Virus record (IMG/VR): IMGVR_UViG_3300045988_039715
Location: 1 to 44,378 of that record
DNA length: 44,378 bases
Origin: a virus
Strand: one strand, 5' to 3'
A model generated the notes under the pieces. It searched no databases. It saw only the letters and a list, made by a program, of their open reading frames with translations, and was not told the origin of the DNA. Both the position numbers and the translations under genes were made by a program. Positions 1-44,378 of the stretch are shown here, piece after piece (within the stretch, counting starts at the first letter, position 1; each line of letters opens with the position of its first letter).

Positions 1-55
1 CACAGGAAGATTTCAGTGAGCCTCGGCCACCGGACAGGTCGTAGTGTGTATGTCC
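1..55. repeat. terminal overlap identical to 44324..44378 (circular assembly junction)
   Basis: Exact 55-nt identity between the two window ends, read directly. The terL reading frame continues across the join. Confidence 0.95.
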
Positions 56-127: not shown

Positions 128-587
128 CTATGACCACCTTGACTTCCATATCCTCACTTGTTTTTTCGATGGGCTTGTCCCTCCACTTGTCAGGTCTGCG
201 GTTTTTGAGCCAGAAGATCTGAGCGGTGGTATCAGCTGGGATGTGGCGGATTGTCTGGATGATCTTCGTACCATCTTTGTCAGATTTTTCGATTCTTTGT
301 TCCTGATAGTCATACCCAAGCGCACGCTTCAATAGAGCATTTTCTACTTGTATGTCCACAACTTCCTTACCCTTTTTTAAGGCCTCGGAAATCTTAGGGT
401 ATTTGTTCTTCCAGTCGTACAAAGTTGCTGGGTTTATCCCCATCTTCCCGGCTAATTGCTCGTCAGTCAGCCCATCCCGTGCCCATCCTTCAAGTAGCAA
501 GAGCCCATCCGGCTCCAGCCACCGTTGATATTTGCCTTTCGCCACAATGGGCTCACCACCTTCCGGTCCCGCCCCCGTCTCCCGCAA
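120..587 (-). CDS. terS: terminase small subunit (HTH-containing)
   Basis: Lies immediately upstream of and overlapping terL. Has an HTH-like segment LTDEQLAGKMGINPATLYDWKNKYP. The track start at 587 is TTG; a GTG at 545 with a GGTGGTGAG RBS is an alternative start. Confidence 0.7.
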   Translation of the reverse strand: MRETGAGPEGGEPIVAKGKYQRWLEPDGLLLLEGWARDGLTDEQLAGKMGINPATLYDWKNKYPKISEALKKGKEVVDIQVENALLKRALGYDYQEQRIEKSDKDGTKIIQTIRHIPADTTAQIFWLKNRRPDKWRDKPIEKTSEDMEVKVVIDV

Positions 588-1282
588 CGAGGCACGGCAT
601 ATATACCCCTTCCGGGGTATGCTCCGGGTTTGGTCAGGCTTTCCGGGGGCCTGTATGTAATCCGCTGTGCGGTATCACATCAAAAGTCCATTTTCCTCTC
701 GTCTGCGCTTGACGATACAAACGGCATTTTGGCTTTAATGGTAAGTTCCTGTCTGGTGCCACCGCCCGCCTCATGCGGCGAGGAGCGGCGTATGTGCGCT
801 TCCCGCTTAGATTGTCACACCACAACATGCAGTTTTCAGCGAGCATTGTCATTCTCTCTGAGGTGTTGCGCTACGCTCAGATCATCCGGGAGCGACCCGG
901 CCTCTGGTGAAACCTGCAAGATTCGAACTTGCGACCTCTACCCCTTTCGGTTAAGTGACGGATTCCGCCCCGTCCCAGATTCCGCATGCCCCCGTCTTTC
1001 CGGGGTGTCAGCTCCTTGGCCTTTGGAGCACATTGTCTAATGCCCGTAAAGGGCGATGTTGCCGCAGGGAGGGCGCGACCCTCCGGCCCGGATGTGTGGG
1101 CTGATGCGCTCGTGCGGCGTATGTACCCCGGCAAGCGCCGGGGTTGAGGAGGAAATAGAAGAAGCGAATGGGAGCGCAGGGGCATACGCTCCCACACTCC
1201 CATTGTCGCATACATATTTCTGCTCACTCATAAAACTTTATGAATTTGCAATATTTTCTATGAGATTATGAAAGTTTAGGGC
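588..1282 (-). ncRNA. large ORF-free, GC-rich, hairpin-dense region; candidate large structured ncRNA
   Basis: Only overlapping ORFs of implausible composition on both strands. Many GC hairpins with GNRA-like loops on the minus strand, internal direct repeats and an embedded tRNA-like element. Confidence 0.5.
905..983 (-). tRNA. tRNA-like element with degenerate anticodon arm (pseudo-tRNA or tRNA-like structure), encoded CCA
   Basis: On the minus strand: acceptor GGAAUCU/AGGUUUC (7 bp, 2 G-U), D arm GACGG-GGCGGAAU-CCGUC, variable loop AGGUC, T arm GCAAG-UUCGAAU-CUUGC, then discriminator A and CCA. The anticodon stem has a mismatch and its loop CGAAAGG lacks U33. Confidence 0.45.
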
Positions 1283-3062: not shown

Positions 3063-3700
3063 TGGGCACCTCCGATAATCTCGTCAAGGGTAACGTGAAC
3101 ACCCGGCTTTATTCCAAGCGCTTTTTCAATGGGTAAACCATCTGCAAGTCGCCTGTAAACCGTTGCACGACTAACTCCATAAATCCCCGCCGCTTGTGTC
3201 AAAGTCATTTTTACCCCTGCAATTTCTAAAATCCGATTATTTCTTCGGTTGTTGTTTTGTTCCTCCCATGATGCCCAGCAACAATTTTCCGGGCAATAAT
3301 CGCCATTTCCATTTTTCCTTTCAATGGTTAGATAATCTTCATATCCGTTTTCAAGGGCCCACATTTGAAACTTACTAAAGTCGTGCCATTCTGGGCAAAC
3401 TTTGATTCCTCGTCCCCCATAATATTTATAGCTTTCTCTGTTCGGTTTTTCGCATCGCCTAATCATTCCTTCCCAGATGTGATATAGTCTTGATTCAGAC
3501 ATATTTTCAAATTTTTTTGTCCCAGCAGAAAAGCAGCCACAGCTTTTTGTTTTTCCACTTGTGAGGTTATACCCCTCTACAGTACATGTATTCCCACAAT
3601 CGCACATGCAACTCCAATATGTATGTTTGTTTTTTGATGGCGCTCTGGATACAACCGTTAACCTTCCAAATTTTTCTCCAGTTAAGTCAATGAGTTTCAT
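3059..3700 (-). CDS. DNA-binding protein (N-terminal Cys cluster, AP2-like core, C-terminal HTH)
   Basis: GRLTVV..YWSCMCDCGN..SCGC; RLYHIWEGMIRRC..YKYYGGRGIKVCPEW; C-terminal LTQAAGIYGVSRATVYRRL. Confidence 0.6.
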   Translation of the reverse strand: MKLIDLTGEKFGRLTVVSRAPSKNKHTYWSCMCDCGNTCTVEGYNLTSGKTKSCGCFSAGTKKFENMSESRLYHIWEGMIRRCEKPNRESYKYYGGRGIKVCPEWHDFSKFQMWALENGYEDYLTIERKNGNGDYCPENCCWASWEEQNNNRRNNRILEIAGVKMTLTQAAGIYGVSRATVYRRLADGLPIEKALGIKPGVHVTLDEIIGGAQ

Positions 3701-19499: not shown

Positions 19500-19535
19500 A
19501 AAATAAAAGCCCCCGGTGCTACCAACACCGAGGGC
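19498..19535 (-). terminator. intrinsic terminator oriented for the minus strand
   Basis: 10-bp stem at 19509-19518/19526-19535 with one mismatch. The U-tract exists only on the minus strand (plus AAAAAATAAAA at 19498-19508). Confidence 0.45.
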
Positions 19536-19662
19536 GGGCCGTAGATGCTACCAACATCAACGGGAAGCAAAGCACCCCAAACCGATAAATCCAAGGCACC
19601 TTTGCGCCCTTTTATTGTATCATACTGGGACCACGGGTGCAACCATAAAAAGGAGGAGCACC

Positions 19663-20712
19663 ATGAAGCGAGCAAATGGGACCGGAACTGTGGTCAAACT
19701 ATCCGGTAACCGGAGCCGTCCATACTGTGTCAGAATATCCCAGCGAGATAAGCGTGGATATGTAATCCAAACAGCCGTCAGTTACCACGCAAAGGCCGCC
19801 GAGGCACAGGCCGCCCTGGATGAATTAGTCAAGAAAATCCAAGCTGGGAATCATATCAGCGCCGATACAATCAATACGACATGGGGGCAGGCTTATGAGA
19901 TATGGTCCGCTCGAAAGTACAGGATAGCTGGACCTGCCTCCGTGGCATCCTATAAAGCCTCCTGGAGCCGTGTAGGGGCTCTAGCTGACCGGAAGGCCAG
20001 GAGTATTACTATTGATGATCTCCAGGCTATCATTGACCAGGATGCGGCGGATGGTATGTCTAGCTCGTCCATTAATAACGACTGCATCCTTATCAAAGCT
20101 CTGTTTAAATTTTTAATGGAACGTGACATTGTTGCGAAGGACTACTCCGCTTTTATTCAGGTCCCGAAGGTCGGTCCGAAGCATACCAAAGGTGCCTTTG
20201 ACGACCTACAGATGGCAAGACTGGAGAAGTTGGCTAAAGAAGGATTCCCATGGGCTGACACGGTGCTCATGCTCTGCTATACCGGCCTCCGCATCAACGA
20301 GTTTTTGTCCCTCACTCCATTCAACTTTGATCCAGACACAGGATGCTTAACTGGCGGCAGCAAAACTGAAGCTGGGAAGGGTAGGACCGTTCCTGTTCAT
20401 CCAAAAATCCGTCCATACTTTGACCGTTGGATGGCAGATCAGGCAGATACTATTATCCATCAGGACGGAAATCCCGTATCAGACAGATGGTATCGGGCCT
20501 CCGCATTCAAAGGTGTCATGGACGCTCTGGGGGTGCCTGATGCCACACCACACTGGTGCCGCCACACATTCGTAACCAGAGCTAAAATAGCTGGGGTAGA
20601 TGAGATGGCCCTAAAGTTCATTGTCGGACACTCCCAGCGGGGAAATATCACCGCGCAATACACTCACCCGGACCCCGCCTGGCTTGCCACCGAGATGGCA
20701 AAAATTGCGTAA
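19663..20712 (+). CDS. int: tyrosine recombinase (phage integrase)
   Basis: ATG at 19663 behind an AAAGGAGGAG RBS. C-terminal HWCRHTF...GH...Y catalytic pattern. Confidence 0.85.
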   Translation: MKRANGTGTVVKLSGNRSRPYCVRISQRDKRGYVIQTAVSYHAKAAEAQAALDELVKKIQAGNHISADTINTTWGQAYEIWSARKYRIAGPASVASYKASWSRVGALADRKARSITIDDLQAIIDQDAADGMSSSSINNDCILIKALFKFLMERDIVAKDYSAFIQVPKVGPKHTKGAFDDLQMARLEKLAKEGFPWADTVLMLCYTGLRINEFLSLTPFNFDPDTGCLTGGSKTEAGKGRTVPVHPKIRPYFDRWMADQADTIIHQDGNPVSDRWYRASAFKGVMDALGVPDATPHWCRHTFVTRAKIAGVDEMALKFIVGHSQRGNITAQYTHPDPAWLATEMAKIA

Positions 20713-24328: not shown

Positions 24329-24427
24329 ATATCACACGTCCTTTGTATAAAAATAAGGAGTCCGTGAGGAGGGCGGCGACGTGTACCAACCCTTGATCCT
24401 CACGTCCTCCATGTCTATATTGTCGCA

Positions 24428-24463
24428 TAAAAATTCCCCGGCTGGGTACGGTCCCAGTCGGGG
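24428..24463 (-). terminator. intrinsic terminator ending the late operon
   Basis: 11-bp stem at 24436-24446/24453-24463 with one mismatch. AAUUUUUA follows on the minus strand. Confidence 0.6.
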
Positions 24464-43215: not shown

Positions 43216-44378
43216 GCCGTTATTCCCATCCTTCGGAATACTCTCTCCAGGGCATATCTAGTAGCGTCAATCAGGTGATTGTTCTCATCAGGATAACCGC
43301 TGATAATTTCTCCGTCCTTATTTCGCTCATACTCATAATTCACAAACTCGTTGTATGCATTTGGCGTTCTTCTGCGGTCAATGACAATCTTCCGCCTCTG
43401 GAGCCACTTCATGCCGTACTCTACACTCCCAGAGCCTTTAATTGCTTCTTTGGCTGGGAGCCCCATCGCCCGATAGTCTGCTGATGATTTAGGCTCTGCG
43501 CTGTCGCAGGTAATGTAAGCGTCCTTGTACCCTTTGGAAAGAATCAACTTCCCGCTCGCCTCGTTGGTCAGCTTATTTTGGTATATCTCGTCCATCAGAT
43601 AAATCGTCTCTCTGGCCCGATCATAGTGGAGGCGGATAAAGGCGAAGGGGTCTGGAAACCAACCCCAGTCCACACCTTGGTAAATACGGTCAAAGGAAGC
43701 GAACTCTTCGTCCGTAATTTCCCTCAACTCCAGATTCTCAAATACGTTGCCGCCAGTACCGACCGCTTCGCCCAAGTATTCATGGCGATAGGCTCTCTCG
43801 TCCGTGGTCTTCAGGTGCTCGGCTTCTGCCAGAAACTGCGCTCCCAGCCACTCTGGCGGGGCCTCAAGGTATGTACTCTTGTGGCACAGCCTGTCCACCC
43901 GCTCCTCCAAACTGTCCTTGTTGGCCCAGTTATCCCGGCTGATTGGTGGATTGTAGCTCTCAAAATTCCAGAACTTCGACCCACCTCGCATGGTAGATTG
44001 CAGTATAGTTCGGATCTCAGCCCGACCAGCGAACTGATCTTTCTCCTCAAAATGGGTGACGGCGATATAGCCAAAGGGAACCTTGATAGACTTGATTTTC
44101 ATGGGATCATCCGCGCCCCGGAACATAATTTTCTGGCCGGTTGGCCTATAAATCAGTTCCATAGGCTGCACCTTTGCATCCCAGTATGCTGCCATTCCAA
44201 GCTCTCCAATACCCCAGAGATATTGTGCGTATACACTGTCTCGAATCGTATTAGCTACCTTTCGGAGCACAAGGGCGTGAGTCCCTGGGTTGTTTATCAG
44301 CAGCAACGGAACTAGTAAGGACACACAGGAAGATTTCAGTGAGCCTCGGCCACCGGACAGGTCGTAGTGTGTATGTCC
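43212..44378 (-). CDS. terL: terminase large subunit, main body (N-terminus at 1..127 across the junction)
   Basis: The ORF is open to the window end. Motifs FRGADDP, ITCDSAEPKS and NHLIDATRYA fit the ATPase and nuclease parts of PBSX-type large terminases. Confidence 0.85.
   Translation of the reverse strand, partial: GHTHYDLSGGRGSLKSSCVSLLVPLLLINNPGTHALVLRKVANTIRDSVYAQYLWGIGELGMAAYWDAKVQPMELIYRPTGQKIMFRGADDPMKIKSIKVPFGYIAVTHFEEKDQFAGRAEIRTILQSTMRGGSKFWNFESYNPPISRDNWANKDSLEERVDRLCHKSTYLEAPPEWLGAQFLAEAEHLKTTDERAYRHEYLGEAVGTGGNVFENLELREITDEEFASFDRIYQGVDWGWFPDPFAFIRLHYDRARETIYLMDEIYQNKLTNEASGKLILSKGYKDAYITCDSAEPKSSADYRAMGLPAKEAIKGSGSVEYGMKWLQRRKIVIDRRRTPNAYNEFVNYEYERNKDGEIISGYPDENNHLIDATRYALERVFRRMGITA
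44324..44378. repeat. terminal overlap identical to 1..55
   Basis: Same 55-mer as the window start. Confidence 0.95.

What the first reader, a model, noticed from the sequence alone, without database searches (positions are those of the whole stretch)
588..1282. ~700-nt ORF-free, hairpin-dense region upstream of the terminase genes: candidate large ornate ncRNA (ROOL/GOLLD-like or new)
Elsewhere in the genome genes abut or overlap. Between the stop of the HTH gene (1283) and terS (587 or 545) the only ORFs overlap one another on both strands and have R/S/P/C-rich, nonsense-like composition.

On the minus strand, which is the coding strand of both neighbours, the region is packed with GC-rich hairpins:
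- 1126-1132/1137-1143 (7 bp)
- 1068-1073/1079-1084 (6 bp), nested inside a long-range helix 1061-1066/1113-1118
- 1170-1176/1187-1193 (GGGAGCG/CGCUCCC)
- 603-620 (AUACCCC-GGAA-GGGGUAU)
- 635-639/649-653
- 886-890/896-900

Several loops are GNRA-like or contain GAAA. The 11-nt repeat ACAUACGCCGC occurs once in each half (plus-strand coordinates 1114-1124 and 785-795). GACAAUG occurs three times. A tRNA-like element sits in the middle.

It is established that the very large ROOL and GOLLD RNAs are enriched in Firmicutes prophages and often lie next to tRNAs. I cannot align this region to their consensus from memory, so class membership is inference only.
Basis: partly seen in the sequence, partly recalled or inferred. 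Interest (0 to 1): 0.8.

Follow-up and report, generated by a model that had tools for sequence, protein, structure and literature searches.

The report
Degenerate tRNA island in phage leader
The gene-free stretch in front of this gut phage's DNA-packaging genes is a patchwork of tRNA-derived and other small folded RNA units, not one giant ROOL/GOLLD-type RNA: an unusual variant of the tRNA islands many phages carry.

Summary
Window 546-1282 (minus strand) has no conserved ORF, every listed hairpin exists, and the sense strand folds far better than shuffles (z -4.3, against -1.2 for the antisense strand).

It is not ROOL or GOLLD: no Rfam match even at E<=10. It is also not one conserved large fold. 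In more than 130 related gut-phage contigs (Flavonifractor, Intestinimonas, Muriventricola) the stretch is a mosaic of independently shuffling modules.

Relatives carry genuine tRNAs (Thr, Ile, Met, Gln) at this position, all on the sense strand. The window keeps only degenerate derivatives:
- an Arg(CCG)-like cloverleaf with A33 (905-983);
- a three-helix tRNA-like element (1057-1118);
- a 36-nt acceptor/T-type minihelix ending in ACCA (754-789), near-invariant in 132 loci with about 30 different flanks on each side.

Each GCC-type unit follows an AYAY leader, as the real tRNAs do. Between them lie motifs absent from Rfam. One has a variable-length, covarying stem (794-843). Another is a pseudoknot plus GNRA hairpin just before terS.

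The array starts at TATGCGACAAT, an extended -10-like motif that also precedes RAGATH-31 elsewhere in this genome, followed by a hairpin with a U-rich tail.

Best reading: a late-operon leader carrying a degenerate tRNA island, probably cut up by tRNA-processing enzymes. The processing and the function are inferred, not shown.

The parts
1229..1242 (-). Inverted repeat CATAAAGTTTTATG between the HTH stop codon and the promoter-like motif. Candidate operator or small hairpin.
   Evidence: Each family of the upstream HTH gene has a different inverted repeat at this place: TTCCTCCttttGGAGGAA, TTGTCCttttttGGACA, TCTCCCACaaaaGTGGGAG, TTCACAtatcTGTGAA. Its function is not tested.
1202..1212 (-). TATGCGACAAT: an extended -10-like promoter motif (TG-n-GACAAT) abutting the first hairpin.
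   Evidence: There are two exact copies in the window, the other at 24419-24429(-), 8 nt upstream of RAGATH-31. In the RAGATH-31 loci of this phage group the motif T(T/A)TGCGA(C/T/A)AAT sits 8-9 nt before the RNA in nearly all cases. Other array loci have TAGAAT or TAAAAT at the same position. The transcription start is inferred.
1167..1204 (-). M1: a long hairpin (14+2 bp, -25 kcal/mol).
   Evidence: The structure is conserved in 16 sequence variants with one doubly changed pair and three G.U pairs, so it is strand-specific.
1146..1166 (-). Pyrimidine/U-rich tail with a conserved UUCCUCCU (anti-Shine-Dalgarno-like) motif.
   Evidence: 33 of 38 distinct tails have at least 5 U in the first 10 nt. 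The mean is 4 purines in the first 25 nt. Some relatives have a U7 run. Weak RsaE-like matches in relatives score 29-32 bits, well below the 79-bit threshold.
1126..1143 (-). Hairpin CCCCGGC-GCUU-GCCGGGG, directly upstream of the UACAUAC leader of the next unit.
   Evidence: -14.9 kcal/mol. Conserved in the alignment.
1057..1124 (-). TL1: ACAUAC leader plus a 62-nt tRNA-like three-helix unit. It has a 6-bp GCC... acceptor stem with a C.C mismatch at position 7:66, a GCCC/GGGC arm, a GGAGGG/CCCUCC T-type arm, and a 3' tail AACA.
   Evidence: In 33 distinct homologues 95% of cells are paired. There are 19 doubly changed cells in 3 pairs, 0 of 500 shuffles reach this, and slid controls give 36-55% paired.
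990..1054 (-). M4 and start of M5: three small hairpins (1042-1054, 1011-1029, 990-1005 with a GAAAGA loop).
   Evidence: The M4 block is present in 38 of 94 loci. Covariation was not tested.
905..983 (-). Degenerate tRNA, Arg(CCG)-like. It has a 7-bp acceptor stem, a canonical T arm (GCAAG-UUCGAAU-CUUGC) and an encoded ACCA. It also has A33 instead of U33, an A.G mismatch in the anticodon stem and a 3-bp D stem.
   Evidence: Rfam tRNA 22.0 bits against a threshold of 29. ARAGORN calls it at relaxed settings and calls close relatives at default settings. A strict acceptor + T arm + NCCA scan gives 1 hit here against 2 in the rest of both strands.
858..900 (-). M6: two hairpins (886-900 CCGGG-UCGCU-CCCGG; 858-880 CUGAG...CUCAG).
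   Evidence: In relatives the block follows different CCA-ended units.
794..843 (-). M7 motif: an outer helix CUCGCU/AGCGGG enclosing the conserved strands CUGAAAACUG and GUGACAAUCUAAG, plus a variable stem P3 (minimal, 11 nt, in the window).
   Evidence: 30 variants. The P3 insert is 11-52 nt, nearly always closed by CC...GG, with compensatory changes between variants. Present in 75 of 94 loci. No Rfam match.
754..793 (-). M8: AUAC leader plus a 36-nt minihelix GCCGCUCCUCGCC-GCAU-GAGGCGGGCGGUGGC-ACCA. It has 12 bp plus a C.C mismatch, a 6-nt loop and an encoded ACCA. Its 3' acceptor strand CGGUGGC equals that of the phage tRNA-Thr.
   Evidence: Conservation runs exactly from AYAY to CCA. 132 loci hold 21 distinct cores against 32 and 31 distinct 12-nt flanks. 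Folds at -22.8 kcal/mol.
654..753 (-). M9: a variable spacer with local hairpins. Poorly conserved.
   Evidence: Present in 3 of 94 loci. Fold.
622..653 (-). Candidate H-type pseudoknot: S1 CAGGC/GCCUG and S2 CCCCGG/CCGGAG.
   Evidence: One S2 pair switches C-G to G-C in many loci, and another switches C.A to U-A. A few loci break S2. Few independent events, so support is weak.
602..621 (-). Hairpin AUACCCC-GGAA-GGGGUAU with a GNRA-type loop.
   Evidence: The loop varies (GGAA, GAAA, GCAA, AGAA) while the stem is kept.
569..601 (-). UAU leader (599-601; the full AUAU begins at 602, inside the hairpin listed above) plus a last GCC... stem-loop without CCA. It lies 10-25 nt before the start codon of whatever gene comes next.
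   Evidence: Found upstream of at least five different downstream genes, including several terS families. Folds at -14.4 kcal/mol.
543..564 (-). Ribosome-binding site GGAAGGUGGUG and the probable GTG start (545) of terS.
   Evidence: The translation from 545 matches phrog_309 from residue 1. The sequence upstream of 569 is shared with loci that have other first genes.

Best explanation
The stretch is the leader of the phage's late (packaging) operon, and it carries a degenerate tRNA island.

Proposed course of events:
1. Transcription probably starts at an extended -10-type promoter (TGcGACAAT, 1202-1210) just downstream of a small XRE-type regulator gene.
2. It runs at once into a stable hairpin with a U/pyrimidine-rich tail. 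This could act as an attenuator or as a protective 5' hairpin.
3. It then passes through a chain of small, independently folding RNA modules before reaching terS.

Several modules are tRNA genes that have lost decoding ability but keep the parts recognised by tRNA-maturation enzymes: an AYAY leader, a GCC... acceptor stem, a T-type arm and, in two of them, an encoded ACCA end. The others are short conserved motifs of unknown function (M7, and a pseudoknot plus GNRA hairpin).

The most likely mechanism is tRNA-type punctuation. RNase P, together with 3' trimming enzymes, cuts at each tRNA-like unit. This would release small stable RNAs (a 5' hairpin/anti-SD-like RNA, TL1, the Arg-like element, the 36-nt minihelix) and a terS mRNA that begins at or near a stem-loop.

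Shown: the anatomy, modularity, strand specificity, covariation, kinship with real tRNAs, and non-membership of ROOL/GOLLD.
Inferred: the transcription start, the attenuation, the RNase P cleavage, and any function of the released RNAs.
For: 1. Real tRNAs occupy the same position in relatives. ARAGORN at default settings makes 74 tRNA calls (Thr-UGU, Ile-GAU, Met-CAU, Gln-UUG, Arg-CCG-like) in 333 kb of oriented loci, and none on the antisense strand. Rfam tRNA scores 55-58 bits in L015 and L035.
2. The real tRNA-Thr and tRNA-Ile share the AAUAU|GCC junction with the window's GCC-type units. M8 shares the acceptor 3' strand CGGUGGC with tRNA-Thr. Phage Chenonceau carries that tRNA-Thr with a 26-nt internal deletion, which shows the decay route directly.
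3. RNA-level structure is supported by TL1 covariation, the M1 hairpin with G.U pairs, the M7 variable-length covarying stem, the strand-asymmetric folding z-scores and the absence of a conserved ORF.
4. M8 is kept near-invariant from AYAY to CCA in 132 loci, amid about 30 different flanks on each side.
5. The promoter motif is shared with RAGATH-31 in this genome and across the RAGATH-31 loci of the group.
6. The last stem-loop lies directly before the first late gene, whichever gene that is.
7. From the literature: bacterial RNase P accepts acceptor/T-stem hairpin substrates, uses the 3' RCCA and the 5' leader, and processes phage regulatory RNAs (PMC4919922).
Against: - No transcript data are available, so the start site, read-through of the first hairpin and all cleavage sites are inferred.
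- The full M1 hairpin starts at the last bases of the putative -10 element. A start 7 nt downstream would therefore exclude its covarying 5' arm, and this conflict is unresolved.
- The promoter scan, which requires a -35 element, found no promoter here.
- TL1 and M8 are not detected by the Rfam tRNA model. Calling them tRNA-like rests on manual anatomy.
- Covariation comes from few independent events among closely related, recombining phages.
- M8's 3' half was fixed by the search pattern, so no compensatory changes could be seen there. A common variant (G4 to U) creates a U.U mismatch.
- Some decay is clearly neutral: the Chenonceau deletion is seen in only 2 loci.
Confidence: 0.55

Rival explanations
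1. Neutral debris. The region is a graveyard of decaying tRNA genes plus short 'linker' sequences at which related phages recombine. The hairpins are leftovers of tRNA stems, and the conservation reflects recent common ancestry and recombination, not RNA function.
For: The mosaic structure has sharp module boundaries. There is a one-off internal deletion of tRNA-Thr in Chenonceau. The Arg-like element has lost U33. The repeated ACATACGCCGC could serve as microhomology for recombination. Most loci come from one gut data set of closely related phages.
Against: M8 stays near-invariant in 132 loci across about 30 different contexts on each side, while its loop varies. M7's stem changes length and sequence but always pairs. 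TL1 and M1 keep their pairing through double changes and G.U pairs. All units and all real tRNAs share one orientation.
Confidence: 0.2
2. One large ornate RNA of a new class, functionally like ROOL or GOLLD. The whole ~650-nt transcript folds, and perhaps multimerises, as a unit with tRNA-like elements embedded in a variable linker, as in GOLLD.
For: The setting matches: a phage, a tRNA island, and tRNAs inside a variable middle part flanked by better conserved ends (M1; M7-M8-M10). GOLLD has tRNAs in its linker and a less conserved 5' half (PMC12286853). The folding z-score is strong.
Against: No ROOL or GOLLD model match at E<=10. No module is universal apart from the one used as the search anchor. 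Length varies fourfold, and protein genes are inserted between modules in some phages. The only long-range helix found is a tRNA-type acceptor stem. No covarying contact between modules was found.
Confidence: 0.07
3. A purely transcriptional control region. The first hairpin plus U-rich tail is a terminator that insulates the late operon, and it is overcome by antitermination. The rest of the leader has no role of its own.
For: A hairpin of -21 to -34 kcal/mol is followed by a U-rich tail in 33 of 38 variants, with U7 runs in some. The same promoter-hairpin-U-run layout is seen at RAGATH-31. A regulator gene always sits directly upstream.
Against: This does not explain the conservation and covariation of M7, M8, TL1 and M10, which lie hundreds of nucleotides downstream. 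The terminator scan did not call the window's copy, whose tail is CGCUUCUUCU. This reading is compatible with the first part of the best explanation and could simply be that part.
Confidence: 0.1
4. A DNA-level site: the packaging site (cos/pac) or the attachment site (attP) of the phage.
For: Packaging sites often lie just upstream of terS. attP sites often copy the 3' end of a tRNA gene, CCA region included.
Against: The integrase is 18 kb away, at 19516-20712(+). The block next to terS is shared by phages with different terS families and with other first genes. The helices contain G.U pairs and fold only on one strand. In Chenonceau the deposited linear record does not end here.
Confidence: 0.03

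Closest known systems
Phage tRNA islands or arrays, for example the T4 tRNA cluster, which also encodes two small stable RNAs of unknown function (the T4 detail is from memory and was not checked here)
   Same: A cluster of co-oriented tRNA genes between the early/regulatory genes and the late genes. Relatives of this phage carry real tRNA-Thr, Ile, Met and Gln at exactly this place. Non-tRNA structured RNAs are interspersed.
   Different: In the window no unit is a canonical tRNA. The best conserved unit is a 36-nt minihelix without D or anticodon arms, and the island lies inside the leader of terS.
GOLLD (RF01998) and ROOL (RF03087), large phage RNAs
   Same: Both are phage or prophage encoded and are often found near tRNA islands. 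tRNAs are sometimes embedded in the GOLLD linker (PMC12286853, PMC5737381).
   Different: There is no covariance-model match. There is no invariant multi-junction core. The modules shuffle independently and can be separated by protein genes.
tRNA-like RNase P substrates outside tRNA genes: the C4 antisense RNA of phages P1/P7, mascRNA from MALAT1, and tRNA-like elements in polycistronic mRNAs
   Same: An acceptor/T-type helix with a single-stranded 5' leader and a 3' RCCA, embedded in a longer transcript. These are the features RNase P uses (PMC4919922).
   Different: Cleavage is not shown here. Several such units are chained together, and they are visibly derived from tRNA genes of the same island.
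Promoter-proximal hairpin leaders of phage late operons (lambda PR'-tR' with Q antitermination, from memory) and RAGATH-31 (RF03101)
   Same: A promoter is followed almost at once by a stable hairpin and a U-rich run. The same TATGCGACAAT motif precedes RAGATH-31 at 24419-24429 in this genome.
   Different: The M1 hairpin does not match the RAGATH-31 model. No Q-like protein was identified, and termination is untested.

Membership tests
ROOL RNA (RF03087) | Match to the family covariance model (about 580 nt, six multistem junctions, three pseudoknots). | tested here: not met
   No match at the gathering score in the whole window, and none at E<=10 on 400-1500, either strand.
ROOL RNA (RF03087) | Typical context: a phage or prophage, near tRNA genes. 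| tested here: met
   The window is a phage genome. Relatives carry real tRNAs at the same place. Context alone does not define membership.
GOLLD RNA (RF01998) | Match to the family covariance model, in particular the universally conserved 3' domain. | tested here: not met
   No match at the gathering score or at E<=10.
GOLLD RNA (RF01998) | tRNAs embedded in a variable linker between conserved parts. | tested here: inconclusive
   tRNAs and tRNA-like units do lie between the better conserved M1 and M7-M8-M10. No evidence ties these ends into one fold.
tRNA (RF00005) | Covariance-model score at or above the gathering score of 29 bits. | tested here: not met
   908-965(-) scores 22.0 bits. TL1 and M8 give no match at all.
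tRNA (RF00005) | A cloverleaf with a 7-nt anticodon loop carrying U33. | tested here: not met
   The ARAGORN drawing shows loop AACCGAA (A33), an A.G mismatch in the anticodon stem and a 3-bp D stem.
tRNA (RF00005) | A 7-bp acceptor stem stacked on a 5-bp T stem with a UUCGAAU-type loop and a 3' NCCA. | tested here: met
   905-983: GGAAUCU/AGGUUUC, GCAAG-UUCGAAU-CUUGC, ACCA.
tmRNA (including two-piece forms) | Detection by ARAGORN, with a tag reading frame. | tested here: not met
   No tmRNA in the window or in L001.
Model RNase P substrate (acceptor/T minihelix) | A coaxial helix of about 12 bp, a single-stranded 5' leader and a 3' RCCA. | tested here: met
   M8 has 12 pairs plus one C.C mismatch, an AUAC leader and ACCA. 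Criteria are from PMC4919922.
Model RNase P substrate (acceptor/T minihelix) | Actual cleavage by RNase P at the predicted junction. | not testable with these tools
   This needs an in vitro cleavage assay or in vivo 5'-end mapping.
Intrinsic terminator (M1 hairpin) | A G+C-rich hairpin followed directly by a run of U. | tested here: inconclusive
   The scan called nothing here, and the window's tail is CGCUUCUUCU. However, 33 of 38 variant tails have at least 5 U in 10 nt, and some have a U7 run.
Extended -10 sigma-70-type promoter | TG, one base, then a hexamer with A at position 2 and T at position 6. Recurs upstream of independent transcription units. | tested here: met
   TGCGACAAT at 1202-1210 and at 24419-24427. 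The variants GATAAT and GAAAAT lie 8-9 nt before RAGATH-31 in nearly all of the 84 matches to the RAGATH-31 pattern. The start site itself was not determined.
RsaE/RoxS sRNA (RF01820) | Covariance-model score at or above 79 bits. | tested here: not met
   No match in the window. Relatives score 29-32 bits over the M1 hairpin, C-rich tract and next hairpin.
Protein-coding gene | An ORF kept open and in frame across homologues. | tested here: not met
   No ORF of at least 40 aa is kept in more than about a third of the loci sharing the DNA. Overlapping frames score alike.

The most novel reading that the evidence does not exclude
The CCA-ended minihelix (M8), and perhaps TL1, are not debris. They may be purpose-built tRNA acceptor-end mimics, mass-produced late in infection by tRNA-type processing. 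They could act as decoys or sponges for factors that read tRNA 3' ends, such as defence toxins that modify or cut the acceptor end, RNase P, the CCA-adding enzyme or EF-Tu. Alongside them, the M7 and pseudoknot motifs would be new functional RNA classes specific to phages of gut Oscillospiraceae.
Probability: 0.15. Interest if true: 0.8.

Novelty: new variant of a known kind. Interest (0 to 1): 0.5.

Why it matters
If the reading is right, this family of gut phages uses tRNA-derived stubs as punctuation marks and possibly as small functional RNAs in the leader of its packaging operon.

- It gives a concrete, testable example of what becomes of phage tRNA genes once decoding is lost.
- It yields at least three candidate RNA motifs absent from Rfam 15: M7, the M8 minihelix, and the pseudoknot/GNRA block. 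They occur in more than 130 viral contigs.
- It links them, through a shared promoter motif, to the orphan RAGATH-31 RNA.
- It flags spurious 'hypothetical protein' calls over such arrays in deposited phage genomes.
- It removes a false lead: this is not a ROOL/GOLLD relative.

Tried and rejected
- ROOL, GOLLD and other large RNAs: Rfam at the gathering score on the whole window and at E<=10 on 400-1500 gave nothing relevant.
- tmRNA or two-piece tmRNA (suggested by a T arm plus CCA in mid-region): ARAGORN found none.
- Protein-coding region: no conserved ORF.
- attP: the integrase is 18 kb away.
- cos/pac site: the block nearest terS is shared across different terS families and other first genes.
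- Hammerhead-like CUGAUGAG in the L008 version of M7: no Rfam support, so treated as coincidence.
- TATGCGACAAT plus hairpin as a nut-like boxA/boxB antitermination site: the RAGATH-31 comparison fits a -10 element better, with hexamer variants GACAAT, GATAAT and GAAAAT and an RNA start 8-9 nt downstream. It is not excluded.
- M1 as a RAGATH-31 homologue: no model match.
- Wasted scans: the 14-mer CCGCTGAAAACTGC is unspecific, so L140-L243 are mostly unrelated. Only 5 true hits were recovered.
- Two regular-expression attempts to collect TL1 failed before a BLAST-based collection worked.
- The literature searches that looked for tRNA-like units, truncated tRNAs or related motifs in phages found no paper describing these motifs.
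Full report
**Setting**

The window is a complete circular phage genome. Its first and last 55 bases are identical, and the large terminase gene reads across that junction. On the minus strand the order is:
- small early genes;
- an XRE-type HTH gene (1283-1495);
- the region in question;
- terS (120-545, phrog_309, E 3e-60);
- terL.

The integrase lies 18 kb away.

**Checking the observation**

- The 11-mer ACATACGCCGC occurs exactly twice, against none in 100 shuffles.
- GACAAT occurs four times in 737 nt, although the window as a whole holds no more copies than chance predicts.
- The sense strand folds with z = -4.26 and the antisense strand with z = -1.21.
- ORFs in the stretch overlap on both strands. 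None is conserved in relatives. The 171-aa and 116-aa ORFs stay open in 3 and 14 of more than 110 loci that share the DNA, and overlapping frames look equally 'conserved', which is what nucleotide-level constraint produces.

**Known RNA families**

Rfam 15 gives one match at the gathering score in the whole window, RAGATH-31 at 24357-24410. On 400-1500 at E<=10 it gives only a sub-threshold tRNA match at 908-965(-), 22.0 bits against a threshold of 29, plus obvious noise. ROOL, GOLLD, OLE, raiA, HEARO and the self-cleaving ribozyme families are all absent. ARAGORN finds no tRNA or tmRNA at default settings.

**Relatives**

The only deposited phage with similarity is Flavonifractor phage Chenonceau. 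It shares two short blocks at 98.8% identity, lying after a small regulator gene and before its terminase genes. There the array is annotated as two 'hypothetical proteins'.

- The 24-nt core of the first hairpin occurs exactly in 38 IMG/VR contigs.
- True copies in bacterial genomes come from an Oscillospiraceae MAG, Intestinimonas, Muriventricola aceti, Flavonifractor plautii ATCC 29863 and one Gastranaerophilales-labelled MAG.
- In every hairpin-anchored locus with upstream sequence, a 70-91-aa ORF ends 36-89 nt before the hairpin. terS, terL and portal genes follow 520-2200 nt downstream.

**Mosaic structure**

Pairwise comparison shows blocks of 80-100% identity separated by unrelated sequence. 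Among 94 minihelix-anchored loci with full flanks, the window's modules are present as follows:

| Module | Loci (of 94) |
|---|---|
| M7 | 75 |
| M1 | 63 |
| M10 | 51 |
| M4 | 38 |
| TL1 | 29 |
| M0 (AT-rich stretch just upstream of M1) | 12 |
| Arg-like element | 10 |
| M6 | 8 |
| M9 | 3 |

In some phages real small protein genes sit between modules. Their third codon positions differ between loci, as expected of coding sequence. This argues against one obligate 700-nt fold.

**It is a tRNA island**

ARAGORN at default settings, run on 173 oriented extracts (333 kb), makes 74 tRNA calls, all on the sense strand and none on the antisense strand. They are Thr(UGU), Ile(GAU), Met(CAU), Gln(UUG) and an odd Arg(CCG). 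Rfam confirms tRNAs at 55-58 bits in L015 and L035.

The real tRNA-Thr and tRNA-Ile are preceded by AAUAU|GCC. The same junction precedes the window's GCC-type units:
- UACAUAC|GCCGCAC at 1118;
- CACAUAC|GCCGCUCC at 789;
- UAUAUAU|GCCGUGCC at 598.

The window's central element (905-983) is the Arg(CCG)-like unit. It differs by one base from the copy ARAGORN accepts in L011 (C to U, turning pair 2:71 into G.U). It has A33, a mismatched anticodon stem and a 3-bp D stem, so it is unlikely to decode.

Chenonceau carries the tRNA-Thr with a 26-nt internal deletion that removes the anticodon arm. The full-length gene is present in 16 loci and the deleted form in 2. This shows one route from tRNA to tRNA-like stub.

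**The tRNA-derived units in the window**

*TL1 (1057-1118)* has a 6-bp acceptor stem with a C.C mismatch at 7:66, a GCCC/GGGC arm and a GGAGGG/CCCUCC arm. Across 33 distinct homologues:
- 95% of cells pair, against 36-55% when the partners are slid;
- three pairs show double changes, in 19 cells;
- no shuffle of 500 reaches the observed score.

*M8 (754-789)* is a 12-bp helix interrupted by the same pyrimidine mismatch. It has a 6-nt loop and a 3' ACCA, and its 3' strand CGGUGGC is that of the phage tRNA-Thr. Conservation runs exactly from the AYAY leader to the final A of CCA, and the flanks diverge at once. Across 132 loci there are 21 distinct cores, against 32 and 31 distinct 12-nt flanks. 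The loop varies more than the stem. Because the search pattern fixed the 3' strand, compensatory change could not be assessed, and one common variant creates a U.U pair. This is a weakness.

A strict scan for acceptor + T arm + NCCA finds one hit in the region and two in the remaining 88 kb of both strands, but many in the related arrays.

**The other modules**

*M1 (1167-1204)* is a 12-17-bp hairpin of -21 to -34 kcal/mol, kept in 16 variants with one doubly changed pair and three G.U pairs. Its tail is U-rich and purine-poor and contains a conserved UUCCUCCU. 33 of 38 tails have at least 5 U in the first 10 nt, and some have a U7 run.

*M7 (794-843)* has two conserved strands, CUGAAAACUG and GUGACAAUYUAAG, around a stem whose insert ranges from 11 to 52 nt. 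The insert is nearly always closed by CC...GG and shows compensatory changes. That is the signature of an RNA motif.

*M10* comprises three parts:
- a candidate pseudoknot (622-653), in which one pair switches C-G to G-C;
- a hairpin with GNRA-type loops (602-621);
- a last GCC... stem-loop (569-598), which lies 10-25 nt before the start codon of at least five different downstream genes.

**The 5' boundary**

TATGCGACAAT abuts M1. The same 11-mer occurs once more in the window, 8 nt upstream of RAGATH-31. That RNA follows an amidase endolysin gene and an 83-aa ORF.

In nearly all of the 84 matches to the RAGATH-31 pattern in this phage group the layout is the same:
1. a terminator hairpin with a T-run;
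2. T(T/A)TGCGA(C/T/A)AAT;
3. 8-9 nt;
4. RAGATH-31;
5. a U-run;
6. a ribosome-binding site.

The variable third hexamer base (GACAAT, GATAAT, GAAAAT), the TG one base upstream and the spacing to the RNA all fit an extended -10 promoter. Other array loci have TAGAAT or TAAAAT at the same place. I therefore infer that the array is transcribed from this promoter.

One conflict remains. A start about 7 nt downstream would cut off the 5' arm of the long M1 hairpin, yet that arm covaries with the 3' arm. Three explanations are possible: the start is unusually close, read-through transcripts from the HTH gene matter, or the shorter inner hairpin (1170-1193) is the form present in the promoter-derived RNA.

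Between the HTH stop and this motif lies an inverted repeat that differs with each HTH family. It could be the regulator's operator. This was not tested.

**Mechanism**

Bacterial RNase P recognises the acceptor/T-stem stack, the 5' leader and the 3' RCCA. It accepts hairpin substrates that mimic those stems, and it processes phage regulatory RNAs and tRNA-like elements in long transcripts (PMC4919922).

The window's units carry exactly those features and share their leader with real tRNAs of the same island. The most economical reading is that the leader is punctuated by tRNA-type processing. That would release several small RNAs and a terS mRNA headed by, or starting near, a stem-loop. The A at -4 and U/C at -1 in the leader match what I recall of Firmicute RNase P preferences; this is from memory and was not checked here.

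What the released RNAs do is unknown. The anti-SD-like tract after M1 and the CCA-ended minihelix are the most suggestive features.

**Comparison with known systems**

ROOL and GOLLD are phage RNAs often found near tRNA islands, and tRNAs are sometimes embedded in the GOLLD linker (PMC12286853, PMC5737381). The present region shares that setting and loosely that layout. It fails the model test and lacks any invariant multi-junction core. It is best filed as a phage tRNA island of an unusual, degenerate kind that holds several unclassified small RNA motifs.

**Verdict**

- Observation: confirmed.
- Interpretation: partly supported. The region is structured RNA, but it is not ROOL or GOLLD and not a single large RNA.
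- Novelty: a new variant of a known kind.
- Interest: moderate. The near-invariant CCA-ended minihelix in more than 130 contigs, and the promoter link to RAGATH-31, are the parts worth an experiment.

Noticed in passing
window 24357-24429 (-): A RAGATH-31 RNA (84.4 bits against a threshold of 71.8) lies after the amidase endolysin gene and an 83-aa ORF with no family match. It is preceded by a terminator hairpin and T-run, then the same TATGCGACAAT motif that heads the tRNA-like array, and it is followed by a U-run and a ribosome-binding site. This layout holds in nearly all of the 84 matches to the RAGATH-31 pattern in the same phage group.
   Followed up: partly
L001 3429-3498; L035 4518-4585: An int-alpA RNA (RF02996; 49.6 and 57.5 bits against a threshold of 35.8) lies just downstream of the array in phage Chenonceau and in one IMG/VR contig. 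It is absent from the window.
   Followed up: no
window 1-55 and 44324-44378: The first and last 55 bases are identical, so the window is a circularly closed assembly of about 44.3 kb. The large terminase gene reads across the junction (413 codons once the repeat is removed).
   Followed up: yes
L001 3002-3485 (Chenonceau, proteins WAK79791 and WAK79792): Two annotated 'hypothetical proteins' in the deposited Chenonceau genome lie over the hairpin and tRNA-like array. They are probably spurious ORF calls.
   Followed up: partly
L003, L008, L035, L039: between the first hairpin and the M7/M8 modules: A cassette of small genes is inserted among the RNA modules. It includes a 65-aa Cys-rich protein (MGKAKRKPRPSMPDWYWWGQDGCWFCKNKNNCNQCK...), and differences between loci fall mainly in third codon positions. 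The array is therefore also a hot spot for accessory genes.
   Followed up: no
window 1229-1242 (-) and the same position in L003, L005, L010, L016, L023: The inverted repeat between the HTH gene and the promoter-like motif has a different sequence for each family of the adjacent HTH protein. It is a candidate cognate operator. On the opposite strand it would read as a hairpin followed by a T-run.
   Followed up: partly
window 1146-1160 (-): UUCCUCCU, which resembles the anti-Shine-Dalgarno end of 16S rRNA, is conserved 15-25 nt after the first hairpin in almost all variants. In relatives this segment gives weak RsaE/RoxS-like matches (29-32 bits, far below threshold).
   Followed up: partly
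L001 about 3130-3205 and L032: Phage Chenonceau carries the island's tRNA-Thr(UGU) with a 26-nt internal deletion that removes the anticodon arm. The leader, acceptor stem, T arm and CCA remain intact. 16 other loci have the full-length gene.
   Followed up: yes
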